Below are positions 20,607 to 64,000 of a stretch of 64,000 bases of DNA, one piece after another (position 1 is the stretch's first letter; each line of letters begins with the position of its first letter). The notes under the pieces are model-generated. The model did not search any database. It saw only the letters and a list, made by a program, of their open reading frames with translations, and was not told the origin of the DNA. Both the position numbers and the translations under genes were made by a program. Source of the DNA: a virus. Taxonomy: Duplodnaviria > Heunggongvirae > Uroviricota > Caudoviricetes. Location of the stretch: positions 1-64,000 of IMG/VR virus record IMGVR_UViG_3300035208_002255; one strand, 5' to 3'.

Positions 20607-20614
20607 ATTCCCTC

Positions 20615-20650: not shown

Positions 20651-20668
20651 TGGACTAAACAATTTAAC

Positions 20669-25911: not shown

Positions 25912-25949
25912 TGAACTATTCCCAAGGTGATGATGTTTTGTTCCATGAT

Positions 25950-27344: not shown

Positions 27345-27349
27345 CGATA

Positions 27350-27553: not shown

Positions 27554-28436
27554 CTTGTGGCTTTCCTACTAAGAGTAGAGAATCTTTCGACTTTTCAAAC
27601 GATACTTCATCACCAAGGCTTACTGGCACAACTTTATGATCTCCATCAATGTACAATGCTGATGAAGACATCTTCGAACGAGCATGTACAGAACATCCCT
27701 CATCGATTTCAATCATTCGTAGACCAGGAGCTTGATCTGGTCTGTGATACAGTTCCCGAACACAAAGCTGTAAAACCTTTGAATCCAAAGGCATAGGATC
27801 GAACCCAGCTGAGCGTCTAGCTCCTGTGGAACCAGCGGCTGGCCCAACCCAAAATCCGCTAGATTTCTGAGTTTCATTTGTACGGAAATAACTTAAATAA
27901 GCAGCGCATTTCTTTTCCAAAACATATGATGATGTTGTAGCCGGGTTTGTATGACAAAACAATACGTCATTCAATACGCGGTCAGCAACTGTAACACCAT
28001 TTTTCTTTACCAACATTCTGGTAAGAACTGTTGATTTAAAGTTCTTAGCAATTACTTGACTAATACTATCTTCAACATTTGCAGCAGTTGAAGTGCAGAA
28101 GAAACCAACGCTTGTTTCCGGATCTGAGTTTACACCAAGAACAGGGATTGTATTATGAACGTTATGAGAGGCACCAAGAAGAGTACCATCACCACCAACG
28201 GTCACAATGAGAGCAACCTCCGACAACTCAGCAATAAAGCTAGCGTTTGGAATATCAATATTGAATACAGTACCAAACTTGTTTGCAGCTTTAATTACCG
28301 CTTCTAGTGCTTCATAATGCCTATCGTGAGATGCTTTCCATCTGGTGATGATGCTTTTATCATCAAACTCAGCATTATCTTCCAAAACTTTGGAATACGT
28401 TGTCTGCTTGCTAACGACAATGATTCTGGGCTTCAT
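27537..28436 (-). CDS. nadK: NAD+ kinase
   Basis: GGDGTLL motif, GVN..G..GFF, C-terminal strand region typical of NadK/PpnK. Confidence 0.7.
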   Translation of the reverse strand: MKPRIIVVSKQTTYSKVLEDNAEFDDKSIITRWKASHDRHYEALEAVIKAANKFGTVFNIDIPNASFIAELSEVALIVTVGGDGTLLGASHNVHNTIPVLGVNSDPETSVGFFCTSTAANVEDSISQVIAKNFKSTVLTRMLVKKNGVTVADRVLNDVLFCHTNPATTSSYVLEKKCAAYLSYFRTNETQKSSGFWVGPAAGSTGARRSAGFDPMPLDSKVLQLCVRELYHRPDQAPGLRMIEIDEGCSVHARSKMSSSALYIDGDHKVVPVSLGDEVSFEKSKDSLLLVGKPQDVFRK

Positions 28437-29044
28437 AAACTCTTGACTTTGTTGAGAACAATATCAGCTGAACGAAGCGTATCTTCTAGAGGGCCTGAAT
28501 TATCAATCACATAGTTAGCATACTTGAGACGTTCATCTGAACTTATTTGGGAATGAATTCTGTTTAGAACATCATCTTTTGACAAATGAGTATTTCTATC
28601 CAAGACTCTTTGGATTTGAATATCCAAGTCAATATGAACAACAACAATGGGCCTGTAGTTTTCGAAATTGCTTTTCTCGATTAGTAAAGCGTTGTCATAA
28701 CAAGCTAGTTCATATCCTTTTAATTCAAGTACCGAAATCTCATCGGACATCAATTGTCCGATTACTGGAAACATAATGACTTCCAAATCTTTCAAACGAT
28801 CTTTATCACTGAAGACAACAGACCCCATCTTTTTACGGTCAATGACTCCATCGCTTCGAAAAACAACATCTCCAAATACACGTCTGATTGATTCAAGCGT
28901 ATTTAAACCAATTGCTGTATTAGGATCTACAGCTTTACGTGATAAGATATCCGGATCAATAATAGGTAGACCTTGCTGTGCCCAATGTTTTGACACAGTA
29001 GACTTGCCACATCCAATCCCACCTGTAAGACCAAAGATTTTCAT
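28433..29044 (-). CDS. coaE: dephospho-CoA kinase
   Basis: GLTGGIGCGKST P-loop characteristic of CoaE; 203 aa. Confidence 0.75.
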   Translation of the reverse strand: MKIFGLTGGIGCGKSTVSKHWAQQGLPIIDPDILSRKAVDPNTAIGLNTLESIRRVFGDVVFRSDGVIDRKKMGSVVFSDKDRLKDLEVIMFPVIGQLMSDEISVLELKGYELACYDNALLIEKSNFENYRPIVVVHIDLDIQIQRVLDRNTHLSKDDVLNRIHSQISSDERLKYANYVIDNSGPLEDTLRSADIVLNKVKSL

Positions 29045-30078
29045 TTGCTGTTATCTGAATCAAAAAGGTCTGCTGTATTCTCTAGAATGGTAGATAGTTG
29101 CTCATTTATTCCAAAGCGCTCCTTGTTATGAGTAATGCTTTTTAGAATGTTACCATCCGCATGACGTTGCGAACTAGCAAACCAATCACAAAACATTTCT
29201 ACAATATCAACAAGTGTCATATCACTAATATATGAATCTTCTTTTGTCTTTAACAAAGTTCCTGTAAATGTTAAATCTAAATGCTTTCCACCATTATTAA
29301 TACAATTCCATATTGCTGAAGCTCTTGCTTTATCATAACCCCTTTCTCTTAGTTCTTTTTCCATTTTATTAATTCCAAGAGTGGTTATGTCTAACTCTTC
29401 GCAAGTTACTTCATATTTTATATTTGCTTTTTTCAGATCATTATCATATGCATGAATTTGATTTTCAGATGAAGTTACCCATTCTAAATTAGAAATGTGA
29501 TTATCATCTTTAATACCATTTTTATGATTAACTTCTGATTTTTTATCATCGTTATCAATAAATGCTTCAGCTACTAAACGATGTACCATTGCATTTTTTC
29601 GATTATCTCCATCTTGCAACTGTAACCTGCAATAACCTTTAGGTGTTATATATTGCTTTAAAAGAATTCCTTGTTTGAAACATGAACCTGTTGGGCCTGA
29701 TCTATCAACAATTCTATTTTTACTTCTAACTCTTCCATGATTTGAAACTTCATGTGAAGTTTCAAATCCAACAACCGGTCGCCATTCTTCTATATTTTCA
29801 AAGAATTCTGGATGATGACGATTTTTGGCGTAATGATGGTCGAGAGCCACCTTCATTTCAGCTCTGCATTTATTGTATTCGTCAGATCCATACGTCATAC
29901 CTTTTAGACGATCTGTGTAAATAGCAAACACTGGAGCTTCAACATCACCAAGTTTTGACTGATCATGTTGTTCGCCTCGTTTTAAAAGTTCAACAGCAAA
30001 GACTCTAAGATATCGGCGAACGTTATCGATGTGATTCCGGGTTTCTTCGTTTGATGCTAATTCTTGTTGAGTTTTCAT
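29041..30078 (-). CDS. HNH_3/NUMOD4-type homing endonuclease with N-terminal HD-like segment
   Basis: NUMOD4 WRPVVGFE..YEVSNHGRVRS, HNH_3 HRLVAEAF...VNHKNGIKDDNHISNLEWVT; N-terminus H(x23)HDQSK...DHHYAKNRHH. Confidence 0.6.
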   Translation of the reverse strand: MKTQQELASNEETRNHIDNVRRYLRVFAVELLKRGEQHDQSKLGDVEAPVFAIYTDRLKGMTYGSDEYNKCRAEMKVALDHHYAKNRHHPEFFENIEEWRPVVGFETSHEVSNHGRVRSKNRIVDRSGPTGSCFKQGILLKQYITPKGYCRLQLQDGDNRKNAMVHRLVAEAFIDNDDKKSEVNHKNGIKDDNHISNLEWVTSSENQIHAYDNDLKKANIKYEVTCEELDITTLGINKMEKELRERGYDKARASAIWNCINNGGKHLDLTFTGTLLKTKEDSYISDMTLVDIVEMFCDWFASSQRHADGNILKSITHNKERFGINEQLSTILENTADLFDSDNSK

Positions 30079-31712: not shown

Positions 31713-32336
31713 TTCATTTTAATTTCTAGATGGAAAGACATCTTCTTTAGAGAAATTGTCATACATTAAGGAAATGTGACTAAGTTGGTATGGCTGAACG
31801 CTTAAAGGTCTAACCATAGTTAGAACTTCCATCCAGCCATGAACCGCACAGGATTCGAACCTATATTTCCTACACTTAGCATTGTCCGGACAATGCTAAA
31901 TGTGGCGTTCCTAAACCATTTAAACTAGCGGCACGAGGAGTTGAAATCTATCACATCGAAACTTGATGTCAAGAACTTTTTGTAGGACGAGTCAGGGTTG
32001 AACGATAACTTTTAAAACTCTGACAACTGCTGGCGTGAACCGCTAGCTATCCTGTTTCGAGATGCGAAGTTACTACTAGAAGTTCTGGAAGTCAAGCTTT
32101 TTCTTTTGGGGCCTACTGTTTCAGGGATTCAATTGGGCCACCATTTGGAACGAAAACAAAATCACGAAAACCACTGTTCCATAACTGCATCATAGGTGAT
32201 TTTCTCACCATTGCTAGATGTAGCGTTGCCTTCCAAAATGACACCCTCAAACCAAAGGTGAATGCTAAACCAAACCTTATCCTTTGGTAATCTACGAATT
32301 GCGTCACCAACTAACGCCGACTCCAATCCAATATCT

Positions 32337-35508: not shown

Positions 35509-36183
35509 TTACTTAACCAAAGAGCTTATTTCTGCTTCTGTTAGAAGAGAATCTTGGCAAGAGAAATTAGCTCCTACTGCTTGAGCTTCTCGACGACGAG
35601 TTATGCCCTTAGAGATGCTTGCATACACACCTGGAACGTTAGCAGTGCGGAATCCATAAGTGTTCGAGGAATTAAAACCAAGGCGAGCACCCTGCTCTTT
35701 CTGAGATTCAATATCTCCACCACCCATGAACACAAAAGACCACTTGTAAACATCTGTCTGATGTTTAACCATTTCCTTTACTTTAGCGGCAGCGAATTCC
35801 TTAGAACAATTCTCTTGACCATCAGTGATGATGAGAAAGATAATCTGTCCAGGGCGCTTCTCTTCAGGAAGAGCTGATAGCCGAGCACCAACAGCATTTA
35901 CAGTTCTACCAACAGCGTCCAGAAGAGCGGTAGATCCGCGAGGAACATAAGTTTCCTCATTGAGGTCAGAAACATCACTGATGTCTTTACCTTCGTAATC
36001 AATTTGATACTGATCATCAAACTGCACGAGAGTTAATAGAGCCTTACCCTTCGCCTTTTTCTGCTCAGCTACAAAGCTGTTAAAACCTCCGATAGTGTCG
36101 GCGCGAAGTGATTGCATAGAACCCGAACGATCGATGATCGCTACGATTTCTGTTAAGTTATTATCTACCATTTTATACCTCAA
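35509..36183 (-). CDS. von Willebrand factor A (vWA) domain protein
   Basis: MIDAS motif IIDRSGSM, downstream T and D residues. Confidence 0.65.
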   Translation of the reverse strand: MRYKMVDNNLTEIVAIIDRSGSMQSLRADTIGGFNSFVAEQKKAKGKALLTLVQFDDQYQIDYEGKDISDVSDLNEETYVPRGSTALLDAVGRTVNAVGARLSALPEEKRPGQIIFLIITDGQENCSKEFAAAKVKEMVKHQTDVYKWSFVFMGGGDIESQKEQGARLGFNSSNTYGFRTANVPGVYASISKGITRRREAQAVGANFSCQDSLLTEAEISSLVK

Positions 36184-42985: not shown

Positions 42986-43128
42986 CAGTGCGCTGGTTCA
43001 TTAGGGTAACGAAAGAGTGTTGACAAATGGGCCACAGTTTCCTGTGTTTTCCAAAAGCCCAGCGGGGATTCGAACCCCGTCTCGCCAATGTTTGAGATAG
43101 ATGAAATGTCAACGGGCGCGTTACTTAG

Positions 43129-43211
43129 TGTGCAAGGAGGGACTCGAACCCTCACGTTTTTAAAACGGCGGGGTTTAAGCCCGCTGCGGCTACCTATTAC
43201 GCCACTCGCAC
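43129..43211 (-). tRNA. tRNA-Leu (anticodon TAA), class II
   Basis: Acceptor GTGCGAG/CTTGCAC with one G-U pair, anticodon stem GCGGG/CCCGC, loop CTTAAAC, long variable arm. Confidence 0.7.
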
Positions 43212-43254
43212 ATTAAATGATAAGGATGCCTACTTTGATGTTATATATCCTTAC

Positions 43255-43959
43255 ATGAGACAAAAAACAAGTATAATTTGGAAACCTAATCGCGAAGAAT
43301 TTCAAACTATTGTAAATCAATATAACAGCTTAGCTGATATTTTACGACATTTTGGTTTACATGTTGGAGCTGGAAATTATAAAACTCTCAAAAATAGATT
43401 ACGAGAAGATAGTGTTAATTTTGAGCATATTAAGCTTGGTATAAATTCTAATAAAAATCGTCCGTCACCATTTAAGTTAGAGCTAAATGAAATTTTAGAT
43501 CGTCATTTAGTTTTTAACTCAAAAATAAAATCATCAAAACTGAAGGAATATATTCTTAAATTCAAATTGTTAGATAATAAATGTTCAGAATGTGGTCAAT
43601 TACCTGAGTGGAATGGTAAGCCGTTAATTCTTCAATTAGATCATATTAATGGTAATTCATCTGATAATAGATTAGAAAATCTAAGAATTCTTTGTCCTCA
43701 TTGCCATTCTCAAACAGATACTTTTTCTGGTAAAAGACTTAAAAAGCATTACAATTGTATTGATTGCCATTGTAGCATTACTAAAAACTCTACAAGGTGT
43801 AAATCATGTTCAAGTAAATTAACAAATAGAAAGACTAAGATTAATTGGCCTCAAAAAGAAGAATTAATTAAAATTACAAATGATATAGGATTTTCTGCTG
43901 CTGGTAGAGAGCTTGGCGTATCAGATAACGCTATTAGAAAACGATTAAAAATCCATTAA
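43255..43959 (+). CDS. HNH homing endonuclease (paralog 2 of 3)
   Basis: LQLDHINGNSSDNRLENLRILCPHCH; C-terminal LGVSDNAIRKRL. Confidence 0.8.
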   Translation: MRQKTSIIWKPNREEFQTIVNQYNSLADILRHFGLHVGAGNYKTLKNRLREDSVNFEHIKLGINSNKNRPSPFKLELNEILDRHLVFNSKIKSSKLKEYILKFKLLDNKCSECGQLPEWNGKPLILQLDHINGNSSDNRLENLRILCPHCHSQTDTFSGKRLKKHYNCIDCHCSITKNSTRCKSCSSKLTNRKTKINWPQKEELIKITNDIGFSAAGRELGVSDNAIRKRLKIH

Positions 43960-44149
43960 CATATAGGGGTCGAACTCATAAGTCCTTGCGGATCGTCAAC
44001 TTTCCAAGTTGATGCCGTCGCCAGCTGTCGGCTAGTCTCTCCATATTCCACTCGCGCACTCCCTAAGTGGACATCGGTTTTCTATCGTGTGCGCTACGCC
44101 AGTTCTATTGAACTAGAAAGAGTTTAAGTAACGAAAGAAGCGAGACCAT

Positions 44150-44262
44150 CGTTTTTCGGCGTCCTGCCACTAGACGAAATCCAATAAAGCTGGATAGAGG
44201 AATCGAACCTCTGTTTCCGGCGTGGAATGCGATGAATGATCTCAGAGCGCGTTACTTAGATG
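44150..44262 (-). other. tRNA-like cassette: T-arm + 3' acceptor (ATCCAGC), then TTT, then 5' acceptor-like (ATTGGAT) + D-arm (CGTC-TAGTGGCAG-GACG), flanked by motif 1 and motif 2
   Basis: Same permuted arrangement as 50791..50885, weaker acceptor pairing (5/7). Confidence 0.4.
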
Positions 44263-44333
44263 CGAGAGTTGGACTTGAACCAACGACCTTCAACTTATGA
44301 GGATGACGAGCTACCAGACTGCTCTATCTCGCA
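44260..44333 (-). tRNA. tRNA (anticodon CAT; Met or Ile2)
   Basis: Acceptor TGCGAGA/TCTCGCA, D GAGC/GCTC, loop CTCATAA, T-arm GTTGGTTCAAGTCCAAC. Confidence 0.7.
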
Positions 44334-44335
44334 GT

Positions 44336-44406
44336 GATCTTAATGGGAATCGAACCCATGTTACCGACTTGAGAAGACGGCTTCCTTGCCTCTAGAAGAT
44401 AAGACC
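44336..44406 (-). tRNA. tRNA (anticodon not resolved)
   Basis: T-arm ATGGGTTCGATTCCCAT with matching acceptor GGTCTTA/TAAGATC. Confidence 0.45.
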
Positions 44407-44540
44407 AAAAACAACGAAAATGCGATGACCAAATGTGTCTGCCAGTTCCACCACATCTAAGTTTCCTTAGATGACAGGATTCGAACCTGTAATTCCAATA
44501 TGTTTGTTTAGATGAATGGTCATCAAGCGCGTTGTTTAGT

Positions 44541-44612
44541 CGGCCAAAATGGAATCGAACCATTTTTTTAACCTTATCAGGGTTACGTGCTAAACCAGTC
44601 TACTATTGGCCG
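44541..44612 (-). tRNA. tRNA-Ile (anticodon GAT)
   Basis: Acceptor CGGCCAA/TTGGCCG, anticodon stem TAACC/GGTTA, loop CTGATAA. Confidence 0.7.
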
Positions 44613-44669
44613 TAATCTGTACTCATTCTATATCAAATTATTGATAGTGAACACTAGAATTATTTCTTG

Positions 44670-45011
44670 TTATAAGATTTTAGTAATTAGATGCCATGAC
44701 GGTTTCTTAGAACCAAGTTTAAGAACTGATGATATCTTCATCCATTTTTCATCAAGTTTTGATATATTTTTTGGAATTTTTAACTTAGTTACATACTCAT
44801 AATCAAATGTAGTATTTTCCCAGATACCAATACCGAATTTGGTATTCTCTGTATTCGATAAATCAATTACATTGAAACCTTTATGATCACCAAGAATTTC
44901 AAGCAAATCACTAACACCCCAATTACCCTCTGTTGGGAACCTTTTTAATATGTTTTTGGCTGTATATTCAGATATAACCACACCATAGAAAATACTTGCA
45001 TAACATTCCAT
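44670..45011 (-). CDS. hypothetical protein
   Basis: 113 aa ORF. Confidence 0.4.
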   Translation of the reverse strand: MECYASIFYGVVISEYTAKNILKRFPTEGNWGVSDLLEILGDHKGFNVIDLSNTENTKFGIGIWENTTFDYEYVTKLKIPKNISKLDEKWMKISSVLKLGSKKPSWHLITKIL

Positions 45012-45240
45012 TAAGCTTTAATGGAGGAGCCTTAATTTCTCGACCCAAAAAGAATTTTGGATTACAAATCTTCATTGGTGATATCTACACCATCACAAGT
45101 TAGCAACATAAACAATTCTTTTGCGCAAACCTCAGGGTCATGATTTTCTGGAGCAATATCTATTTTGATGTCTTGAAGACCGTTTTCTTTCTCTTTAGCA
45201 GAGAACTCACGGAGCTGATTCATCCAATACCCTTGCGTTT

Positions 45241-45558
45241 TCATAAATCCTCTTTAGCGCTTTCGATTCCATCTTGAAGGAGTTTCCAAGATTGTTCAGA
45301 TATTATGTTTTGAACAATGAGATAACCCAATTGTTTTTTCCCCATATGTACATTGATTACATCACCTTTTTGAACTTTGTCAAGAGCTTCCGGAACCAAA
45401 GCATCTACCCATGCAAACAGACCATCTTCATCTTGGTAAGGTGTACATCTAATTGAATATACAGATCCTTGGATTGTAGTATTCACAACAAATAGAACAC
45501 CTACACTAACCAAATGCAAATACAGGTCATTAATATTTACTTTGACAAATAGTCTCAT
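45241..45558 (-). CDS. hypothetical protein
   Basis: 105 aa ORF. Confidence 0.4.
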   Translation of the reverse strand: MRLFVKVNINDLYLHLVSVGVLFVVNTTIQGSVYSIRCTPYQDEDGLFAWVDALVPEALDKVQKGDVINVHMGKKQLGYLIVQNIISEQSWKLLQDGIESAKEDL

Positions 45559-45866
45559 TTCTCGTTCTCTTTACTCCAAGTTTCCCAATCCTCAACACTC
45601 TTAAAGATAGGAGGATTTTCTCTAAGTCTTTTAACTCTTTCCGATCTTTCAAGTTCATCTGATTTAATTTTTGATGCTGCAACTTTATCTACAAAGCCAC
45701 ACCCACCACATCTTCCACCAGGAAAATAAACCCCAAAATATTGCCCAACTGCCGGATATCCAGCTCCTAAATATTGCTTTACTATTGGGTATCCACATCT
45801 AGGACAATCACAATGATCTTCTATGTTATACATCTTAACCTGATCTTCCTCTACTCTTCTTATCAC
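45555..45866 (-). CDS. zinc-binding hypothetical protein
   Basis: CDCPRCG...CGGCG. Confidence 0.4.
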   Translation of the reverse strand: MIRRVEEDQVKMYNIEDHCDCPRCGYPIVKQYLGAGYPAVGQYFGVYFPGGRCGGCGFVDKVAASKIKSDELERSERVKRLRENPPIFKSVEDWETWSKENEK

Positions 45867-46125
45867 TAACTCTTTCAGTACGGAAGCGGCGAGAAGGATC
45901 TTGTTTACTTAACCACTTAATATGCTTTGCAAACTTCTCATCACTCAGAAGAATCTCAACCGTGTTGAATTTATCTTCCAACTCTTTATTAGTGAAGAAA
46001 GCATGTATTGATTTATGACAATCAAGACATATTGGTAGAGTTTCTTTTCCGCCTCGGGATTTTGGAGTCAAATGATGATCTGAGACTTCGGGAACTTCTC
46101 GACTACAAAGAGGACAATCATACAT
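45835..46125 (-). CDS. small HNH endonuclease
   Basis: HHLTPKSRGG...CLDCH HNH core. Confidence 0.55.
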   Translation of the reverse strand: MYDCPLCSREVPEVSDHHLTPKSRGGKETLPICLDCHKSIHAFFTNKELEDKFNTVEILLSDEKFAKHIKWLSKQDPSRRFRTERVSDKKSRGRSG

Positions 46126-46133
46126 ATTAATCC

Positions 46134-46550
46134 TTATTCATCATCTTCATCTTCTTCACGTTCCCAGCGCTCATATAATGCAGCTGGGCTATTATACGCA
46201 TCCCAAGGAATCTTATATTTCTTTTCTTCTTTGGTAATCTCTTTAGGTGGTTCCAGAGTAACATCTCTGGGAACAATTACCATTTTCAACTGATCGCCTT
46301 TTAAGACACAATTACCAATTATCAAAGGATCTTCACCTTTAGTTTCTCTGGTAAGATAATAAGTATTATTATCAAGACGAGGACCAATACCAAATCCTCT
46401 ATCATTCAATGCTTGTCGATAAAAATCAGTTCCATGACCAACACGTTTACCATTAGCGGTCTCAGTCAATGCTGAGTTTAACCAATGACGTTCAATATTA
46501 GTTAACGTTTGTTGGGCTAGTTTGAGAATCTGTTGGTGTCTTGAGATCAT
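46134..46550 (-). CDS. hypothetical protein (start trimmed; upstream codons overlap tRNA-Leu)
   Basis: Track ORF 46134..46637 runs into tRNA 46570..46653. Confidence 0.4.
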   Translation of the reverse strand: MISRHQQILKLAQQTLTNIERHWLNSALTETANGKRVGHGTDFYRQALNDRGFGIGPRLDNNTYYLTRETKGEDPLIIGNCVLKGDQLKMVIVPRDVTLEPPKEITKEEKKYKIPWDAYNSPAALYERWEREEDEDDE

Positions 46551-46569
46551 ATTTCTATGTCTATTTAGT

Positions 46570-46653
46570 GCCATTGGAGGGAGTCGAACCCTCATCCACG
46601 TACGTGGGCCAAATTTTGAGTTTGGTATGTATGCCAAATTCCATCACAATGGC
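46570..46653 (-). tRNA. tRNA-Leu (anticodon CAA), class II
   Basis: Acceptor GCCATTG/CAATGGC, stem CCAAA/TTTGG, loop CTCAAAA, variable hairpin CCACGTACGTGG. Confidence 0.7.
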
Positions 46654-46760
46654 GTAGATAACAGAGACTTGGATCTCTGCCCGAACCAACATTGATAATT
46701 TCCAAGTACCAATATCAATTCTAGAGTACAAAATAGGGTTCAAGCCAATCTGTACTTTGT

Positions 46761-46832
46761 AGGACGTATAGGATTCGAACCTATAACCTTTCCGTTATGG
46801 GCGGAACGCACTGACCGTTGTGCTAACGTCCC
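46761..46832 (-). tRNA. tRNA (anticodon CAT; third CAT tRNA)
   Basis: Acceptor GGGACGT/ACGTCCT, D GCAC/GTGC, stem TTCCG/CGGAA, loop CCCATAA. Confidence 0.7.
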
Positions 46833-47216
46833 AAAAAACTAATCTTGCTGCCCTTTAATCTGTTGCTTACCAAACCTTCGACCAATTCTCTTGAACCATC
46901 TGTACATAGATTTCTCAGAACTTCTCTGAGGTTTTTTCCTTTCCGGAACACCAAGGAATCGAGTCATCCTTGGCCAACCACCAGACTTACGCCGATCAAA
47001 TGGATTATCAAAGCCATAAGGTTTCATTTATTTAGCTTTCTGATTCTGAATGTTGCGGTCGGACAGTTCTGTTTGTGTTTTTCAAGAATCTCTTGAGCAT
47101 TCTTTTCCTTAACAAGAGAAATAGGTCTCTTGCAAGCATTACAAAACCACCAGCTTTTCATTAAGAAACATGAACATCCCATATACTGATACTAGAGTAT
47201 TCTAAGACTTCCTAGT

Positions 47217-47273
47217 TCTTCGAGTAGGAATTGAACCTACGTCCCTATGGCTCTTCCACTGAGCTATCGAAGA
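47217..47273 (-). other. 57-nt tRNA-like element with no anticodon arm (acceptor + D-arm + T-arm only)
   Basis: TCTTCGA-TA-GCTC-AGTGGAA-GAGC-CATAGGGAC-GTAGG-TTCAATT-CCTAC-TCGAAGA; perfect 7-bp acceptor pairing. Confidence 0.45.
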
Positions 47274-47302
47274 ATTGAAGGTTCCCTAAGGAACCTCCTA
47301 GC

Positions 47303-48145
47303 TTACCAAAGAATATTAGTATTCTGTGGTTCTGGTTTTTGCCAACCGAATCTCAGATCATTGATTGATAATTGCTGAATTGGTTGTGATATTAAAGAAC
47401 CTTCTGACATTGCGATTAGTCGTTTTTCAAATACAGATCTTCGCACAGTTCTTACTATATCTTCATCATTCCAAGTTCTCAGGTCTGTACTCTTTTTCCA
47501 GAATCTTTCAGCAAGAAAGACTCGTCTTCTAGAGGCTTCACCACCTCTTCCACAAGATCCTGATGCGTATACTTTTAGCTTTCCGCCAGGATTTGAACCA
47601 CATCTAGAATAAGACCATCGAATCATTTTCAAGCCTTCATAGAAACATAGCTTTCTATTATCTACTAAAGCTTGACCAGTAACACCTTTTTCGATATCTT
47701 CTGGATTGTCACCGAACTGAGGTGGTCTGTCATACTTCACATTCCAAGTACGAGTTTTTGATGGAGCTTTTCCTGCCTTGATTTGCATCATGCACCATGA
47801 ATGTCCCGAATCTCCTCTGCCAGAAAGATCACCATAATCAACATCTCTGCGAAATCCGGACTCATGAAACATGATGGATAGCATAACAGCTACTGTATGC
47901 GCTCTTCCATCTGGTCCATCAAATACTGGTTTGTTATTAGGATCGTAGACAACCTCTACCAAATCCTTAGCTATCGATTCATATCTTTGATATGATTCTT
48001 CTGGAGTTTCAAATAGAACAATTGCGTCCTTTGTTTTACTCATTCGTACTTGATCACGACGACTCTGTTCCGCAGGGGGAATCATTGTCATCATGAACGC
48101 CATAATCCATGCAAATAATCCGTTCATGTATCCTCGGGGTGTCAT
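47303..48145 (-). CDS. lytic transglycosylase (SLT domain) / peptidoglycan hydrolase
   Basis: FHESGF...SGHSWCMMQI matches the SLT ES...GLMQ catalytic signature. Confidence 0.6.
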   Translation of the reverse strand: MTPRGYMNGLFAWIMAFMMTMIPPAEQSRRDQVRMSKTKDAIVLFETPEESYQRYESIAKDLVEVVYDPNNKPVFDGPDGRAHTVAVMLSIMFHESGFRRDVDYGDLSGRGDSGHSWCMMQIKAGKAPSKTRTWNVKYDRPPQFGDNPEDIEKGVTGQALVDNRKLCFYEGLKMIRWSYSRCGSNPGGKLKVYASGSCGRGGEASRRRVFLAERFWKKSTDLRTWNDEDIVRTVRRSVFEKRLIAMSEGSLISQPIQQLSINDLRFGWQKPEPQNTNILW

Positions 48146-48169
48146 AGTATTAGAAGCCCCATGCGGCTG
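48141..48169 (-). promoter_or_regulatory. conserved 28-nt element GTCATAGTATTAGAAGCCCCATGCGGCT (copy A), putative phage promoter
   Basis: Sits right upstream of the SLT gene start; five near-identical copies in the window. Confidence 0.4.
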
Positions 48170-48450
48170 TTTTCGCCAGTGGTTAACCTACTGGTTGGTT
48201 GAGCGAGCCGAAACTCTAGTTACTTGTTTCAAGGTAGTCAAGAAGTTTTGGGATACAGCCGACCGGCTGACAAACTCTCAACTCGAAAACAAGAACAGTA
48301 TCCAAAGGCTCTTTGCCTGAGCCTAGGATTATTCCTCGACATCAAACCTTTACCCTTGAGATACTTCGTCAGACAACTTTCATTCTAACGAGAATTCCAA
48401 GCTTAGCAGTTTTCTCCGTATGTAAGATGAGGTAGTATTACCATACTACC

Positions 48451-56713: not shown

Positions 56714-56758
56714 ATTAGGGCCACCAAAGCATCATCTCCGATGATACTCGGGCGGCAG

Positions 56759-56829
56759 GGTGTCCTCTCGGGATCGAACCGAGATCAACTGAGCCACAAT
56801 CAGTTCGCTTACCATTAGCGTAAGGACAC
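56759..56829 (-). tRNA. tRNA-His (anticodon GTG)
   Basis: Acceptor GTGTCCT/AGGACAC, stem ACTGA/TCAGT, loop TTGTGGC. Confidence 0.65.
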
Positions 56830-56834
56830 ACGCT

Positions 56835-56904
56835 CCAGGAGAGGGCCTCGAACCCCCAAATCAACACGTTAACAGCGTGCCGGCTTGCCAATTTGCCTAT
56901 CCTG
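56835..56904 (-). tRNA. tRNA-Asn (anticodon GTT), tentative
   Basis: Loop CTGTTAA; acceptor has one mismatch. Confidence 0.5.
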
Positions 56905-57171
56905 GAATAAAAACAACGAAAAGGGTGAAGACCTAGCCGCTCTGCGACCACGCTTGAGCAGTAATAACGGAATTGAACCGTCGATTTTTATGTTCCAATA
57001 AAGATGAAAGGTCTTCGAATCGCGTTGCTTAGTGGACCTTGAAAGCAGAAAATCCATCGCCCTAGAGTACCAATTCTAGGCTCCACAAATTAATGTGGCG
57101 TTTATTCTAGGCAGAATCTCGGGTACGTTCTGCAGAGATATTTGTATCTTTGAATCAATAGATTCTCTTCG

Positions 57172-57243
57172 TCGGGATAGAAAGGATCGAACTTTCGACT
57201 TCTAGTTCCCAAAACTAGCGGACTACCTCTGTCCTATACCCCG
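57172..57243 (-). tRNA. tRNA-Pro (anticodon TGG)
   Basis: Acceptor CGGGGTA/TATCCCG, D GGAC/GTCC, stem CTAGT/ACTAG, loop TTTGGGA. Confidence 0.55.
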
Positions 57244-57672
57244 TTTGTAAGTTCTAATACAATGACAATTTGAACAAACTAATTCACACTTAGAAATTTC
57301 TGTTTCGATTTTATCCCAAGAATAGTGACCTGGCATATTTGCTATGTTTTCCATTTTATCGTTTAAATGATCAAATTGCATTACATAATAAGGATAAGCC
57401 TTTCCACAATCCGTGCAAGGCTTATAATCTTTTAAAGATCTAATTTTAATCCTTTGAACATCACGATTTTTCTTGGTTGTATTATATCTTCTTTTATTAT
57501 GTTCTGTTTTGTTTTCAACGTAATGCTTCCGACAATATTCTTTTTGACATTCTTTACAATAAGAAGACAATCTTTTGCCATTATTTGAAAATTCTGTTTC
57601 TGACTTTTCTTGATTGCACTTTGGGCATTGCTTCATAAACTGATATGGGATTATTGATAGGTCCCAAAACAA
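57223..57672 (-). CDS. HNH endonuclease (Cys-rich)
   Basis: CPKCN...CKEC zinc knuckles and FDHLND...NCHCIR HNH core; 3' end overlaps the predicted tRNA-Pro. Confidence 0.55.
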   Translation of the reverse strand: MFWDLSIIPYQFMKQCPKCNQEKSETEFSNNGKRLSSYCKECQKEYCRKHYVENKTEHNKRRYNTTKKNRDVQRIKIRSLKDYKPCTDCGKAYPYYVMQFDHLNDKMENIANMPGHYSWDKIETEISKCELVCSNCHCIRTYKRGIGQR

Positions 57673-57745
57673 GCCCTCTACCAGATTGAGGTACGCTCTG
57701 ATTTTGAGCAGTTACTTAATCTGCTCGTCGTATATTGTCAAGGAA

Positions 57746-58087
57746 CTATCTAACCTTAATCGTTACGCCAAATGGCCGTACCTTATCAGTTAGTTCGTTC
57801 TCAAACCACCACACGTTGGTAGCTCTCTCGACCCCTTCTGTACTTTGTATTGTAGGTGTTGTACTAATGTACACTACTGAAGTTGAAGGATTACCATCAA
57901 CAACTCTAGCACTAAAAGCTTTACCACCAAAATATTCTTTTGAGTAGTACTGATAATTATCAGAAAGAACCTTTTGAATGATTGCATCAGCTTTCCTGAT
58001 TACGTTCATGAAAGGATCATTATCAGGACCATACTCGGCAGTCTTTTGAAAAGTTGAGCTATACTGAAGAATCTTTGAAGCATCCAT
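57746..58087 (-). CDS. hypothetical protein
   Basis: 113 aa ORF. Confidence 0.4.
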   Translation of the reverse strand: MDASKILQYSSTFQKTAEYGPDNDPFMNVIRKADAIIQKVLSDNYQYYSKEYFGGKAFSARVVDGNPSTSVVYISTTPTIQSTEGVERATNVWWFENELTDKVRPFGVTIKVR

Positions 58088-58169
58088 GAATGAATGAGGT
58101 ATTATTGATATTTACTCATTCTTTCGTCATAATGGGGAAATTTGGATTCGAACCAAATTTCCACCTTCG

Positions 58170-58248
58170 TGGTACCGGAGAGACTTGAACTCTCACCATT
58201 AAAGACTGACTTCTAGGGTCAGCGTGTCTGCCATTCCACCACGGTACC
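58170..58248 (-). tRNA. tRNA-Leu (anticodon TAG), class II
   Basis: Acceptor GGTACCG/CGGTACC, stem CTGAC/GTCAG, loop CCTAGAA. Confidence 0.6.
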
Positions 58249-58407
58249 ATAAAGAACAACGAAAAAGCGAGACCAGTTTTGTTTTTAAGCTTCCTGGCCG
58301 TTGTATTAGTTCTTTCGAACTAGTGGCCAGGGTTGGATTCGAACCAACAATCTATTTCTTTTCATGGAATTGCTTTGCCGATGAAAGATCTCTAACGCGT
58401 TGTTCAG

Positions 58408-58486
58408 TGGATGCAGTAGGATTTGAACCTACAAGTCTGTGAGGAACCGGAGCGATCCGGCGGGCCGCCAATTGCCCAATACATCC
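58408..58486 (-). pseudogene. tRNA-Tyr-like paralog with disrupted anticodon loop
   Basis: Acceptor, D-arm and T-arm nearly identical to tRNA-Tyr at 58588; anticodon region CCGGA-TCGC-TCCGG has a 4-nt loop. Confidence 0.4.
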
Positions 58487-59030: not shown

Positions 59031-59212
59031 GATCCTTGTTCCTCTTTAGATCAAATCGTACTCCGGCAGTATTGGCCTTCTGGTTGATGTGAATTAAATC
59101 GATACTGTCCAAACTTTGAACACAGAATTGTATTAACCTTAATTAGGTTAATTAGATTCTGATTATTCAAAATTATAGAACTCATATTTAAACTCCACAG
59201 GATCGCTTTTAT

Positions 59213-59241
59213 GTCATAGTATTAGAAGCCCCATGCGGCTG
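59213..59241 (-). promoter_or_regulatory. conserved 28-nt promoter-like element (copy E)
   Basis: GTCATAGTATTAGAAGCCCCATGCGGCTG, upstream in the minus sense of the tRNA cluster at 58.1-58.97 kb. Confidence 0.4.
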
Positions 59242-59431
59242 TATTATTACGAAGTTATGCCTAGGTTTCTCGACCTAGAAAGTTCTTTTATGATAAAATC
59301 TTCTAAGATGAAGATTGGAAGAGTAACTTGTCCGATTCACCGACCACTCGCCATGGTCACGGGGCTTCGAACAAGTCCTGACTAAGGTACTTCAGGATGA
59401 ATCTGGTGTCAACCTGTTTTTTTCGTTTTTC

Positions 59432-59899
59432 TTACAGATTCCTGACAAAAATCTTCTGTTCTTCGGTTTCTGGTCCGCGAGCCAGTTCATGAACACGGTC
59501 CAGAGCTTCGGCTGCTGGTGTTCCTAGTTTGACTAGGATTGAAGCAAGCGCAAGTGATGTTCGACCTACTCCACCAAAACAATGCACGAAAACCGTTTTC
59601 CCAAGACAAAGTTCTTCAATAACAGATGAAACCTTTGACATGAATGATTCAATATCCGAAGGAATACTGTAATCATCAATGGGAGACCAAATCTCCTTAG
59701 CTCCATTAATATCACCATGAGATTCTTCAAGCAGATTGAAAATGACATCAATCTTTCTGGTGTGAATTTCGTCTTCAATTGCGGAAGATTCCCATGAATT
59801 CCACATTCTTCCAAATAGAAGAGTTCCCATTGGAACTTCCATTTGACCCTTTACCAAAGGATTGATTTTGAGGAGCAGTGCGGTTACATCATCCGACAT
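59432..59899 (-). CDS. dual-specificity / protein-tyrosine phosphatase
   Basis: CX5R active site VHCFGGVGRTS. Confidence 0.7.
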   Translation of the reverse strand: MSDDVTALLLKINPLVKGQMEVPMGTLLFGRMWNSWESSAIEDEIHTRKIDVIFNLLEESHGDINGAKEIWSPIDDYSIPSDIESFMSKVSSVIEELCLGKTVFVHCFGGVGRTSLALASILVKLGTPAAEALDRVHELARGPETEEQKIFVRNL

Positions 59900-62572: not shown

Positions 62573-64000
62573 TCACATCATTGTTGCTGCCAAGTTAGCA
62601 AGTTCAGAACGCTCACCCTTGGAAAGGGTTAGGTGACCAACTATTGGATTGTTATAAAGTTTCTCGATAGCAAAGCTCAATCCACATGATCCTTTATCCA
62701 TGTAAGGATTGTCAATCTGATCTGGGTCACCAGTCAAAACGATCTTGGTTCCATCACCACAACGAGTGATAATGGTTTTTAATTCATGAGGCGAAAGATT
62801 CTGGGCCTCGTCCACGATTAAGAACTGATTTGGAATGCTTCTACCACGAATATAAGTCAGTGGTTCAACCTTAATTAAGTCCTGTTTATACAGATCCTCA
62901 AACTTCATGTTTGTCTTCTTTTTACCAGAAGTCATCATTAGAAGTTCTAGGTTATCATAAATAGGTTGCATGTAAGGATCGAGCTTCTCTAAAAGAGTGT
63001 TGTGGGTAACAATAAAATCATCAGTTAAATACAAATGCTCTTCGTTTTCAATAAGTATACATTGACATTCCTTAACACCAACAAATTCTATTGATTTAAT
63101 CCTTGCATCATAAATATATGCACACTTGAATCTTTCACGTTTTCTTTCGATAAAGAAAGGATTCAAATTCTCTGGTAAAGAAATATTGAATTCATATGAA
63201 AGAAATTTTGGTGATATAGTCCTATTTTTTATGATTGATTTTTTACCAATTCTATCTCTTGATTTTATTTGGGCCCTACCACCAAGAGACTTTACAACCT
63301 CACAAACATCTTTTGCTAATTGTAAAGATGTTGTTGTAAATGATGCTTCTCCATTTGCTTTAACTGTACCGTCAGTATCCATCAAACCCCTAATTAGATT
63401 TATTCTATCTTCAACAGAAGAATATTTATACATATCAGGGATGAATTTATTATTACAAACTTTACCAAGTAAACCTAAATTATATATTGCATTTTTAACT
63501 GGATTAGACCATCTATTTTCATTTTCTACAAATTTATAAAAGTAGCCATCAATAGTTACATTTCTGGTACATTTATTATATATTGTAGATGTGTTAATGT
63601 CTGTTTTTTCTGCACAGATTCCAATTCGTGTATAGTTATAAACTTCACCAGTATTTGTATCAGTTATTTCAATTTGTCTTGCTGGTTTATTATTTGGTAT
63701 ATCTGAAACAATATTGTAATTAATTCCACATGGTTTAGATAAATAACAATTTAATTCTTTAACTTCTTCATTTACTCTTTGCGCAATTTCAACATCATTA
63801 TTTGATAATAATATTGATGTGCATAAAGATCCATCACCAAGTAAAGCGCCAAGAGTATATGGTTTTATAGGAAGTGACTTAACTTTATATTCTACAGGTT
63901 CATTTCTTGGAAGATAATGATTTAACTTTCCGTTTTTAGTTAGTGTATTTATTATCTCTCTTGTAGTTTTTATACTACCACTCTTATTTCTTTTCTTCTG
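62573..64000 (-). CDS. PhoH-like ATPase interrupted by an intein (partial, runs off the window edge)
   Basis: C-extein LIVDEAQNLSPHELKTIITRCGDGTKIVLTGDPDQID is PhoH-like; the minus-strand frame stays open with no stop from 63434 to 64000. Confidence 0.7.
   Translation of the reverse strand, partial: QKKRNKSGSIKTTREIINTLTKNGKLNHYLPRNEPVEYKVKSLPIKPYTLGALLGDGSLCTSILLSNNDVEIAQRVNEEVKELNCYLSKPCGINYNIVSDIPNNKPARQIEITDTNTGEVYNYTRIGICAEKTDINTSTIYNKCTRNVTIDGYFYKFVENENRWSNPVKNAIYNLGLLGKVCNNKFIPDMYKYSSVEDRINLIRGLMDTDGTVKANGEASFTTTSLQLAKDVCEVVKSLGGRAQIKSRDRIGKKSIIKNRTISPKFLSYEFNISLPENLNPFFIERKRERFKCAYIYDARIKSIEFVGVKECQCILIENEEHLYLTDDFIVTHNTLLEKLDPYMQPIYDNLELLMMTSGKKKTNMKFEDLYKQDLIKVEPLTYIRGRSIPNQFLIVDEAQNLSPHELKTIITRCGDGTKIVLTGDPDQIDNPYMDKGSCGLSFAIEKLYNNPIVGHLTLSKGERSELANLAATMM
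62999..64000 (-). mobile_element. intein with LAGLIDADG endonuclease domain inside the PhoH-like gene (N-terminal junction outside the window)
   Basis: LGALLGDGSL and LIRGLMDTDGT LAGLIDADG blocks; ends ...FIVTHN followed by Thr. Confidence 0.7.

What the first reader, a model, noticed from the sequence alone, without database searches (positions are those of the whole stretch)
43100..58408. Repeated inter-tRNA cassettes bounded by two conserved ~30-nt motifs
Motif 1 (GATGAAWGATCTYMARGCGCGTTRCTTAGTG, at least 10 copies) always abuts the 3' end of a canonical minus-strand tRNA. Motif 2 (YAACGAAARR-GCGAGACC-...-YTTTTCG, an AT-stem hairpin with a conserved loop, at least 9 copies) lies 40-110 nt away toward lower coordinates (downstream in the minus-strand sense). 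The sequence between them is either a permuted tRNA-like unit (50.8, 51.1, 53.3, 44.2 kb), a lone 3' half (56.94-57.03 kb, 58.29-58.41 kb), or a short hairpin (55.0 kb). One locus carries motif 1 in tandem (51354..51407). This looks like a modular insertion/processing system rather than random spacer. The motifs could be processing or ligation guide sequences, target sites of the resident homing endonucleases, or terminal repeats of a small tRNA-associated mobile element.
Basis: seen in the sequence. Interest (0 to 1): 0.75.

Follow-up and report, generated by a model that had tools for sequence, protein, structure and literature searches.

The report
Phage Y-RNA-like genes between tRNAs
The two repeated motifs are the 5' and 3' strands of one conserved RNA stem that closes about a dozen small structured RNAs, many with a tRNA-shaped top, sitting between tRNA genes of a giant phage; in related phages the same RNAs lie just downstream of a Ro60/Rsr gene, so they are most likely an expanded, divergent family of Y RNAs.

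Summary
Eleven units lie on the minus strand (the tRNA sense strand) between 43.0 and 58.4 kb. Each starts with motif 1 and ends 20-113 nt later with motif 2.

The two motifs base-pair with each other. They form an outer helix (NNNNAACG/CGUUNNNN), an asymmetric internal loop, and an inner helix (GAUC/GGUC with a conserved U.G wobble). Covariation across more than 60 units from at least 6 uncultivated jumbo phages is strong. The pairing is strand-specific (G.U 71 against A.C 10).

The stem closes a variable top:
- a full tRNA mimic (T arm, closed acceptor-like stem, UA linker, D arm) that hits Rfam YrlA below threshold;
- a T arm only; or
- a plain hairpin.

Most units fill a tRNA-to-tRNA spacer exactly, so tRNA processing would release them.

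In 7 of 9 related phage lineages examined, 1-3 units lie within about 1.5 kb downstream of a divergent Ro60/Rsr gene on the same strand. Some of these have no tRNA nearby. No canonical YrlA is present at those loci.

Best reading: these are phage Y RNAs with a new Rsr-handle consensus, multiplied and embedded in tRNA operons. The ideas of homing-endonuclease targets, terminal repeats and ligation guides are not supported. No rsr gene lies in the window itself.

The parts
43002..43128 (-). Unit U43.1, between tRNA-Leu(taa) and tRNA-Cys. The closing stem has the variant inner helix GUUGACA/UGUCAAC. The top has a T arm and a closed acceptor-like stem but no D arm.
   Evidence: (z = -2.4)
44124..44259 (-). 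Unit U44.2, directly after tRNA-Met. Canonical closing stem. The top has a T arm, a short closed stem and a D-like arm.
   Evidence: z = -2.2
44407..44539 (-). Unit U44.5, between tRNA-Ile and tRNA-Glu. The top has a T arm, an 8-bp closed stem and a class-II-like D arm (GGUGGAACUGGCAGACAC).
   Evidence: (z = -3.0)
50758..50912 (-). Unit U50.9, between tRNA-Glu(ttc) and tRNA-Arg(tcg). Full permuted tRNA-like top: T arm, closed acceptor-like stem, UA linker, D arm.
51069..51233 (-). Unit U51.2, between tRNA-Asp and tRNA-Arg(acg). Full tRNA-like top plus an extra GCCGAAAGGC hairpin. Gives a sub-threshold Rfam YrlA hit.
   Evidence: (27.5 bits)
51311..51383 (-). Unit U51.4, a short hairpin-type unit just upstream of tRNA-Asp. 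It follows a promoter-like repeat, not a tRNA.
   Evidence: (z = -2.4)
51381..51406 (-). Extra tandem 26-nt copy of the motif 1 strand. It lacks UUCAUC and has no motif 2 partner of its own.
   Evidence: (family D3)
53208..53362 (-). Unit U53.3, between tRNA-Phe and tRNA-Ala. Full tRNA-like top. Gives the best Rfam YrlA hit in the window, matching the tRNA-like domain only.
   Evidence: (31.3 bits against a gathering score of 69)
54667..54756 (-). Unit U54.7, a decayed copy (AACGCU, hairpin top) just upstream of tRNA-Gln. A strain variant (L113) keeps AACGCG and a T arm.
   Evidence: z = -3.2
54965..55053 (-). Unit U55.0, between tRNA-Lys(ctt) and tRNA-Thr. The closing stem carries two small hairpins and no tRNA-like part.
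   Evidence: z = -3.9
56909..57032 (-). Unit U57.0, just upstream of tRNA-Asn, preceded by a degenerate tRNA-like 3' end. The top has a T arm and one hairpin.
   Evidence: z = -3.3
58252..58407 (-). Unit U58.4, between a pseudo-tRNA (58407-58486) and tRNA-Leu(tag). The top has a T arm and a closed acceptor-like stem but no D arm. Gives a sub-threshold Rfam YrlA hit.
   Evidence: (27.9 bits)

Best explanation
Each 'cassette' is a gene for a small structured non-coding RNA of the Y-RNA kind.

Handle. Motif 1 is the 5' strand and motif 2 the 3' strand of a conserved closing stem. The stem has an 8-bp outer helix ending in AACG/CGUU, an asymmetric internal loop (5'-CGC.. opposite ..UUU-3'), and a 7-10-bp inner helix built on GAUC/GGUC with a U.G wobble, followed by UUCAUC. 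This is shown.

Top module. The stem carries an exchangeable top. In about a third of units it is a complete tRNA mimic with a closed acceptor stem, as in bacterial YrlA. In others it is a T arm only, or a simple hairpin. This is shown.

Biogenesis. Most copies are embedded as spacers in polycistronic tRNA operons. The RNA would be cut out without extra machinery: 3' processing of the CCA-less upstream tRNA would make its 5' end, and RNase P cleavage of the downstream tRNA would make its 3' end. This is inferred from the exact abutment.

Partner and function. The handle is most likely the binding site of a phage-encoded, divergent Ro60/Rsr protein. This is inferred from gene neighbourhood in related phages. 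The top modules would then tether or gate that protein towards tRNA-binding or RNA-degrading partners such as PNPase, in RNA surveillance or repair of the phage's large tRNA pool. This last step is an inference by analogy with Deinococcus, Salmonella and Thermus-phage Ro60-Y RNA particles.
For: 1. Pairing of motif 1 with motif 2.
- Every MFE fold pairs them (z-scores -2.2 to -3.9).
- On 38 units, helix columns 4-10 and 14-20 are at least 95% paired in all but one column, with 9-21 double changes per variable pair. The covariation score is 0.456 against 0.15 for shuffles (0/500) and about 0.1 for slid controls.
- With no complementarity filter, 64 units defined by sequence motifs alone pair at 94, 94, 89 and 67% in the four positions outside AACG/CGUU. 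Partner-shuffled values are 47-58% (0/1000).

2. RNA level and strand. G.U outnumbers A.C by 71 to 10 in the stem and 14 to 0 in the top helices.

3. tRNA-like top. RNAalifold on a plain MAFFT alignment of 18 units recovers a T arm, a 7-bp closed acceptor-like stem, a UA linker and a D arm. Seventeen of 24 pairs show compensatory changes. Rfam YrlA matches exactly this domain at E = 2e-4 to 4e-3.

4. Ro60 link.
- In 7 of 9 related phage lineages, 1-3 units lie within about 1.5 kb downstream of a ~530-aa gene on the same strand (L081, L026, L007, L030, L118, L126, L127).
- That protein is a full-length Rsr/Ro60 homologue. A profile of it matches PDB 2nvo (Rsr) at E = 1.6e-14 over residues 33-489, and also 9nen/1yvp (Ro60). 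NCBIfam RNA-bind_Rsr matches at 1e-17 to 2e-8. Pfam vWA_Ro60 matches. JGI names several members '60 kDa SS-A/Ro'.
- Five of these rsr loci were scanned against Rfam; they hold no canonical YrlA or other Rfam family apart from tRNAs.
- In L081 the units form a stand-alone promoter-to-terminator unit with no tRNA.

5. The window phage is related to these phages: neighbouring genes are shared at 36-63% amino-acid identity.

6. Released by tRNA processing. Thirty-eight of 64 units start 3-7 nt after a tRNA 3' end, and 31 of 64 end 4-14 nt before the next tRNA. The rsr neighbourhoods encode a CCA-adding enzyme, RNase T and a metallo-beta-lactamase-fold protein.
Against: - No rsr gene lies in the 64-kb window, nor in the 8 kb and 10 kb of flanking sequence I could reach. 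For this phage the partner is therefore assumed to be encoded elsewhere in the genome.
- The published 5'-strand Rsr-binding motif GNCGAAN0-1G (the 'CGAA' motif; PMC4201824, PMC12135203) is not present. The 5' strand reads RYAACGCG(C).
- The Rfam YrlA model matches only the tRNA-like part and stays far below its gathering score (27-31 bits against 69).
- Two Rsr lineages (L115, L123) have no clear unit, or only a degenerate one, downstream.
- There is no expression or binding data. The RNAs could act only in cis.
Confidence: 0.62

Rival explanations
1. The elements are purely cis-acting processing punctuation. In this reading the stem is a recognition or cleavage site (of the RNase III, RNase E or RNase Z/BN type), or a block to exonucleases, that separates CCA-less tRNAs in the polycistronic precursor. 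The excised piece would have no function of its own.
For: The units abut tRNAs exactly, with constant spacing: 4-5 nt after the upstream tRNA and 5-10 nt before the next one. The stem-loop-stem of about two helical turns resembles phage RNase III sites (my own knowledge of the T7 R1.1-type sites; not tested here). tRNA-end-processing enzymes are encoded in related phages.
Against: Stand-alone copies exist with their own AT-rich upstream region and terminator and no tRNA, next to rsr. Many adjacent tRNAs in the same arrays have spacers of 0-5 nt and no element. The tRNA-mimic top, with covarying T, acceptor and D stems and tRNA tertiary nucleotides, would serve no purpose in a cleavage signal. 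This reading can coexist with the best explanation.
Confidence: 0.17
2. The elements are tRNA-mimic decoys or sponges that act without Ro60. The handle would bind another phage or host protein, and the tRNA-shaped tops would soak up host tRNA-targeting defence enzymes or tRNA-binding factors.
For: The T and D elbows are conserved, while the anticodon and the free CCA end are missing. The units sit in a large phage tRNA set of the kind thought to counter host tRNA depletion (background knowledge). The handle lacks the canonical CGAA Rsr motif.
Against: About 40% of units have no T arm at all, yet they keep the handle. The repeated rsr-then-units gene order (7 of 9 lineages) would be left unexplained.
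Confidence: 0.12
3. The elements act at the DNA level: integron attC-like folded recombination sites, inverted repeats of a miniature transposable element, or homing-endonuclease target sites that shuffle tRNA cassettes.
For: The AAC...GTT core, an unpaired spacer, a second helix and a variable terminal part look superficially like the attC R-box, spacer, L-box and variable terminal structure (recalled from my own knowledge). There are many HNH and LAGLIDADG genes in the region.
Against: No integrase or transposase was found in the window or in the related loci. The bases outside AACG/CGUU covary within each unit; crossover at G|TT would scramble them. The loop asymmetry and the U.G wobble are conserved and strand-specific. 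The top domain keeps RNA tertiary-interaction nucleotides. The endonuclease genes show no fixed relation to the motifs.
Confidence: 0.04
4. The elements are circularly permuted tRNA genes that mature into working tRNAs: the ends would be ligated in an anticodon loop and the closed acceptor stem opened.
For: The order is permuted (T arm, acceptor 3' strand, loop, acceptor 5' strand, D arm). RNA-repair-type genes occur in this phage clade.
Against: No 5-bp anticodon stem with a 7-nt loop can be rebuilt. The tRNA-like core joins the handle through a 3-bp stem and a junction. Many units lack a D arm or the whole tRNA part. There is no bulge-helix-bulge motif.
Confidence: 0.02

Closest known systems
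YrlA, the bacterial and phage Y RNA-like tRNA mimic (Rfam RF02553; Chen et al. 2014, PMC4201824; Wang et al. 2018, bioRxiv 10.1101/312249)
   Same: The 5' and 3' ends pair into a stem-loop-stem handle of nearly the same dimensions (YrlA: 6-bp outer stem, 5/8-nt loop, 7-bp inner stem). The effector domain is a tRNA mimic with a T arm, a closed acceptor stem, a UA linker and a D arm. It is encoded just downstream of Ro60/Rsr on the same strand; here this holds in the related phages.
   Different: The handle sequence differs: AACGCG...GAUC.UUCAUC / GGUC...UUUCGUU, with both strands conserved, instead of a 5'-strand GNCGAAN0-1G. Scores are well below the Rfam gathering threshold. There are 10-12 or more copies per genome rather than 1-2. 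Most copies are embedded as tRNA-to-tRNA spacers far from rsr. The tRNA-like domain is optional.
Yrl1 and Yrl2 of Thermus phage phiLo, bound by phage phiRo60 (PMC12135203)
   Same: A phage-encoded Ro60 sits next to short stem-bulge-stem Y RNA-like genes. The short hairpin-type units found here resemble these minimal Y RNAs.
   Different: The phiLo Yrls were identified by a CGAA motif and lie upstream of the Ro60 gene. There are two copies and no embedding in tRNA operons. I did not compare sequences.
Phage T4 stable RNAs, species 1 and 2 (rnaC, rnaD), in the T4 tRNA cluster
   Same: Small stable RNAs of unknown function that are co-transcribed with phage tRNAs and excised by tRNA-processing enzymes. 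rnaC ends in a T-arm and acceptor-like 3' half.
   Different: T4 has no motif 1 or motif 2 and no matching stem. T4 has no Ro60 gene (my own knowledge).
tRNA-processing-coupled non-coding RNAs: MALAT1 mascRNA and murine gammaherpesvirus 68 tRNA-miRNA units (my own knowledge)
   Same: The same biogenesis logic: an adjacent tRNA or tRNA-like structure recruits RNase P or RNase Z to define the ends of a neighbouring non-coding RNA.
   Different: These are eukaryotic or herpesviral systems with unrelated sequences and functions.
Integron attC sites
   Same: An imperfect palindrome with an AAC/GTT core, an unpaired spacer, a second helix and a variable terminal structure, occurring at gene boundaries in arrays.
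   Different: There is no integrase. The outer bases covary within each site. Conservation is at the RNA level and strand-specific, with a tRNA-type top domain.

Membership tests
Y RNA / YrlA (RF02553) | The 5' and 3' ends pair into a long stem interrupted by an internal loop (stem-bulge-stem handle) | tested here: met
   Covariation on alignment A1; test without a complementarity filter; MFE folds
Y RNA / YrlA (RF02553) | Conserved 5'-strand Ro60/Rsr-binding motif GNCGAAN0-1G ('CGAA') | tested here: not met
   The 5' strand at the same stem/loop junction reads RYAACGCG(C) in all units. Only the CG is shared. The complement AACGAAA lies on the non-folding DNA strand.
Y RNA / YrlA (RF02553) | tRNA-like effector domain: T arm, closed acceptor-like stem, UA linker, D arm, with conserved elbow nucleotides | tested here: met
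   Met for a subset: 5 of 11 window units and about 20 of about 62 units overall. Other units have only a T arm or a hairpin.
Y RNA / YrlA (RF02553) | Encoded within about 4 kb of a Ro60/Rsr gene on the same strand | tested here: inconclusive
   Met for units in 7 of 9 related phage lineages. Not met for the window units: no Rsr in the window or its reachable flanks. The rest of the genome could not be read.
Y RNA / YrlA (RF02553) | Reaches the Rfam gathering score (69 bits) | tested here: not met
   27.5-31.3 bits, matching the tRNA-like domain only. No hit at the five rsr-adjacent loci scanned.
Y RNA / YrlA (RF02553) | Physically bound by Ro60/Rsr | not testable with these tools
   Needs RIP or EMSA with the phage Rsr.
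Ro60/Rsr protein (the partner encoded in related phages) | Full-length homology to the TROVE ring plus the Ro60-type vWA domain | tested here: met
   PDB 2nvo at E = 1.6e-14 over residues 33-489 of about 530. NCBIfam RNA-bind_Rsr at 1e-17 to 2e-8, below the equivalog cut-off. Pfam vWA_Ro60 above its cut-off in 3 of 4 proteins; the Pfam TROVE hit is only faint.
Integron attC site | A nearby integron integrase, and R-box halves that are exchangeable between cassettes | tested here: not met
   No recombinase among the ORFs scanned. The outer-helix bases covary within each unit.
Circularly permuted tRNA gene | Joining the ends rebuilds a normal anticodon arm, and bulge-helix-bulge or equivalent processing motifs are present | tested here: not met
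   The folds show a 3-bp stem and a junction leading into the handle, with no 5-bp stem plus 7-nt loop.
Known self-cleaving ribozymes or other Rfam families | A match to an Rfam covariance model | tested here: not met
   cmscan at E up to 1-10 over 42-60 kb gives only tRNA, tmRNA-like and weak YrlA hits.

The most novel reading that the evidence does not exclude
A clade of jumbo phages runs a multi-Y-RNA system. One divergent phage Ro60 reads a new handle code (AACGCG / GAUC.UUCAUC / GGUC / UUUCGUU). That handle is shared by a dozen or more different RNAs, whose exchangeable tops range from hairpins to full tRNA mimics. The RNAs are mass-produced by riding on tRNA-operon transcription and on RNase P/Z processing. 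The resulting particles would guard, repair or regulate the phage's own tRNA pool, or hijack host exonucleases, during the conflict with host tRNA-targeting defences.
Probability: 0.3. Interest if true: 0.8.

Novelty: new variant of a known kind. Interest (0 to 1): 0.66.

Why it matters
Y RNAs and Ro60 are conserved from bacteria to humans, yet what the bacterial and phage versions do is still poorly understood. Known genomes carry one or two Y RNAs next to rsr. Here a phage clade carries ten or more, with a different conserved handle and a natural series of effector modules, wired into tRNA operons.

If this holds, it offers several things:
- A ready-made comparative data set for how Ro60 recognises RNA, with more than 60 handles and rich covariation.
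- Evidence that the tRNA-like module is optional and exchangeable.
- A clear example of non-coding RNA biogenesis coupled to tRNA processing in phages.
- A possible link between Ro60 particles and the maintenance of phage tRNA pools.

It also means that the 'spacers' in phage tRNA arrays should be annotated as genes.

Tried and rejected
I replaced it with gapped patterns.
- Megablast and blastn of the region against 50,697 phage records gave no match, or tRNA hits only. No cultured relative carries the element.
- An unannotated BLAST hit in Agrobacterium phage Atu_ph07 turned out to be a tRNA-Asp. The 12 kb around it has no units.
- The T4 rnaC/rnaD region has no shared motif.
- The genome-contig scan gave 3 hits, all chance matches inside coding sequence with no tRNAs and no pairing. 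The scan used only the long-form exact pattern, so its sensitivity is limited.
- About 70 single-hit viral loci from the short pattern are chance matches.
- I searched for rsr in the window phage: Pfam on all ORFs of 280 aa or more, and tblastn with four phage Rsr proteins against the window and the reachable flanks of its 154-kb source contig. Nothing was found. The remaining ~82 kb of that contig could not be fetched.
- The weak VWA ORF at 35509-36183 is not a Ro60 fragment.
- The supplement of Chen et al. 2014 is not held. PMC10870794 is not held.
- Considered and rejected: attC-like sites, terminal inverted repeats of a miniature transposon, homing-endonuclease targets, functional permuted tRNAs, known ribozymes, and a hammerhead-like CUGANGA (present in only some copies).
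- I did not build a covariance model. Pattern-based and RNAalifold analyses were sufficient.

Full report
**Setting.** The window is 39.6% G+C, and nearly all its genes are on the minus strand. It carries 37 tRNA genes along with HNH and LAGLIDADG endonucleases, inteins and other genes typical of very large phages. It is the reverse complement of roughly positions 89,996-153,995 of a 154-kb metagenomic contig, ENA ERZ27247350 k141_543237. It has no close relative among 50,697 deposited phage genomes.

**Checking the observation.** I read the sequence on the tRNA sense (minus) strand.
- Motif 1 is ..NNNNAACGCG(C)-N2-5-GAYC-N-UUCAUC.
- Motif 2 is GGUC-N6-10-UUUCGUU-NNNN.
- A simple scan finds 11 motif 1 cores between 43.1 and 58.4 kb and 11 motif 2 cores. 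Each motif 2 lies 20-113 nt downstream of a motif 1. A twelfth motif 1 (54.75 kb) is degenerate.
- The repeat finder recovers the family and the tandem 26-nt duplication at 51355-51406 (families D2, D3, D15, D19).
A gapped pattern joining both motifs gives 5 window matches against none in 100 shuffles.
- Eight of the 11 units begin 4-5 nt after an ARAGORN tRNA. Two follow degenerate tRNA-like ends and one follows a promoter-like repeat. Ten of 11 end 5-10 nt before the next tRNA.

**What the two motifs are.** They are the two strands of one helix.
- Every unit's minimum-free-energy fold pairs motif 1 with motif 2 in the same way: an outer helix ending in AACG/CGUU, an asymmetric internal loop (5'-CGCNN against NNN(Y)UUU-3'), and an inner helix centred on GAUC/GGUC. 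In one search, z-scores are -2.2 to -3.9 for seven units.
- Unit U43.1 already shows a compensatory swap: GUUGACA/UGUCAAC in place of GAGAUCA/UGGUCUC.

**Related sequences.**
- The motif 1 pattern is multi-copy only in four IMG/VR jumbo-phage contigs of 208, 219, 336 and 459 kb.
- The joint pattern finds 17 more genuine metagenomic loci.
- It finds only three chance matches inside coding sequence among 185,579 bacterial and archaeal species genomes.
- These phages share flanking genes with the window at 36-63% amino-acid identity.

**Covariation in the stem.**
- I made a gap-free alignment of the stem strands of 38 units (A1). The helix columns are almost always paired, with 9-21 double substitutions per variable pair. 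The covariation score is 0.456 against 0.15 for shuffles (0 of 500) and about 0.1 for slid registers.
- That unit set had been filtered for some pairing, so I repeated the test on 64 units defined by the sequence motifs alone. The four positions outside AACG/CGUU pair in 94, 94, 89 and 67% of units, against 47-58% when partners are shuffled (0 of 1000).
- The pairing is strand-specific. G.U outnumbers A.C by 71 to 10 in the stem and 14 to 0 in the top helices. The GAUC/GGUC wobble is U.G in 25 and C.G in 11 of 38 units.

The folded molecule is therefore an RNA read in the same direction as the tRNAs.

**The part between the motifs.**
- Rfam's YrlA model (Y RNA-like, RF02553) matches three window units below threshold, at 27.5-31.3 bits against a gathering score of 69. 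The match covers precisely the YrlA tRNA-like domain: short stem, T arm, closed acceptor-like stem, D arm.
- RNAalifold on a plain MAFFT alignment of 18 such units independently predicts the outer helix, a 5-bp T arm, a 7-bp closed acceptor-like stem directly following it, an invariant UA linker and a 4-bp D arm. Seventeen of 24 pairs show compensatory changes.
- T-loop and D-loop nucleotides are of the tRNA type.
- The top is modular. About 37 of about 62 distinct units have a T arm, about 20 also have a D arm, and the rest carry only small hairpins. The shortest units are 64 nt.
- A strain variant of this same phage (L113) has a T arm where the window's U54.7 carries a deletion, which shows turnover between forms.

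**The decisive context.**
- I scanned 69 ORFs from the related loci against Pfam. Three matched the Ro60 vWA domain.
- The proteins are four ~530-aa orthologues, 56-71% identical to each other, one in each of the four IMG/VR contigs.
- A profile of them matches Deinococcus Rsr (PDB 2nvo) at E = 1.6e-14 over almost the full length, and also human and Xenopus Ro60. NCBIfam RNA-bind_Rsr matches at 1e-17 to 2e-8.
- The subfamily has at least 93 clusters in public metagenomes, on contigs of up to 459 kb. JGI names several of them '60 kDa SS-A/Ro ribonucleoprotein'.
- In each of the four contigs, 2-3 units lie 0.7-1.6 kb downstream of this gene on the same strand.
- I examined five further Rsr lineages. 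Three have the same arrangement: L118/L119, L126 (NCBI JARKUL010000589.1) and L127, whose Rsr is only 50% identical. Two have none or only a degenerate remnant: L115 and L123.
- In L081 the two units form their own transcription unit, with an AT-rich upstream region and an intrinsic terminator and no tRNA.
- I scanned five of these rsr loci against Rfam; they contain no canonical YrlA or other Rfam RNA apart from tRNAs.
- The rsr neighbourhoods also encode a CCA-adding enzyme, RNase T paralogues, a metallo-beta-lactamase-fold protein and a kinase. This fits the maturation of CCA-less tRNAs.

**Interpretation.** Y RNAs were defined in bacteria and phages by exactly these traits: a stem formed by the two ends, a variable effector module that is often a tRNA mimic, and a position beside rsr on the same strand (PMC4201824; bioRxiv 10.1101/312249; PMC12135203). 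I therefore read the cassettes as genes for a divergent, expanded Y RNA family. The motif 1/motif 2 stem would be the common handle for the phage Rsr.

- Shown: the structure, the strand, the modularity, the spread across phages, the abutment to tRNAs, and the rsr linkage in relatives.
- Inferred: co-transcription with tRNAs, excision by RNase P and a 3'-end endonuclease, binding to Rsr, and the downstream role. That role would be tethering or gating Rsr towards exonucleases or tRNA-binding factors, as in the Deinococcus, Salmonella and Thermus-phage particles.

**Points against.**
- No rsr lies in the window or in the 18 kb of flanks I could reach. The other ~82 kb of the source contig and the rest of the genome were out of reach.
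- The published CGAA motif on the 5' strand is replaced by AACGCG.
- The Rfam score is far below threshold.
- Two Rsr lineages lack clear units.

I therefore do not file these RNAs as YrlA members. I file them as a new variant of the Y RNA kind.

**Rivals.**
- A purely cis-acting processing signal explains the abutment. It does not explain the stand-alone rsr-linked copies or the conserved tRNA mimic. It may still be an additional role.
- A Ro60-independent decoy is possible but leaves the gene order unexplained.
- DNA-level readings (attC-like site, terminal inverted repeats, endonuclease targets) conflict with four results: covariation within each unit outside the AAC/GTT core, the conserved loop asymmetry, the strand-specific wobble, and the absence of any recombinase.
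- A functional permuted tRNA is excluded because no anticodon arm can be rebuilt.
- T4's rnaC and rnaD, the classic unexplained stable RNAs of a phage tRNA cluster, are analogous in context but unrelated in sequence.

**Literature.** Searches found phage Ro60 and Y RNA-like pairs in mycobacteriophages, CcrColossus, Bacillus phage G and Thermus phage phiLo. They also found a note that a few jumbo phages encode ROT/TROVE proteins. Nothing describes multi-copy Y-like RNAs embedded in tRNA arrays, or this handle.

**Verdict.** This is a real, well-supported structured-RNA family. It is most likely Ro60-associated, new in its handle sequence, copy number and embedding in tRNA operons, and known in kind.

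Noticed in passing
window 48140-48173, 51406-51473, 54082-54162, 54216-54296, 59212-59245: A five-copy repeat. On the sense (minus) strand it reads as a hairpin GUUACCAAAGAAGUGAAAUUCCUUGGUAAC followed by AGCCGCAUGGGGCUUCUAAUACUAUGACA. It sits at the heads of tRNA/element runs, directly upstream of unit U51.4. It looks like a phage promoter or a transcription-unit boundary (families D7, D12, D16).
   Followed up: no
window 43960-44125 (minus strand): A structured-looking stretch of about 165 nt after unit U44.2. It ends in a T-arm-like GAGUUCGACCCC and lies next to the opposite-strand HNH gene 43255-43959. It has no Rfam hit. It may be an intron-like or disrupted tRNA remnant.
   Followed up: no
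window 53650-54070 (minus strand): Several lone tRNA halves and T-arm fragments (for example 53652-53690 and 53905-53960) are separated by a long GC-richer segment. This may be a tRNA split by an intron or by endonuclease activity.
   Followed up: no
window 31840-31934: ARAGORN calls a 95-nt tRNA with anticodon UUA, which would read the UAA stop codon. It may be a suppressor tRNA.
   Followed up: no
window 47216-47273: Rfam tRNA hit of 46 bits that is only 58 nt long and is not called by ARAGORN. It may be a truncated or arm-less tRNA-like gene.
   Followed up: no
window 13421-15412 and 62573-63433 (continuing beyond the window; L112 6885-9410): LAGLIDADG-containing inteins sit inside an ABC-type ATPase and inside an 841-aa PIN-PhoH protein. 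HNH genes lie at 43255-43959, 49747-50421 and 29041-30078, and a free-standing LAGLIDADG gene at 56209-56613.
   Followed up: partly
L113 17224-17345 compared with window 54667-54756: A strain variant of the same phage (JGI 3300037067) carries an intact AACGCG and a T arm in the unit that is shortened and degenerate in the window. This shows recent decay of one copy.
   Followed up: partly
L125/L126 2653-5180 and L127 1-5053: Upstream of the phage rsr gene lies a cluster of tRNA-end enzymes: a CCA-adding enzyme (PolyA_pol with HD), RNase T, a Lactamase_B_2 (RNase Z/BN-like fold) protein and an AAA_33/KTI12-type kinase.
   Followed up: no
window 18003-22972, 24227-28436, 59432-59899: Genes for PspA-like, SPFH/Band-7, NADAR, NAD kinase and a DSP-PTPase (Tc-R-P/PTP-SAK type) phosphatase. 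Such domains are often discussed in conflict and RNA-repair contexts. No link to the RNA units was established.
   Followed up: no
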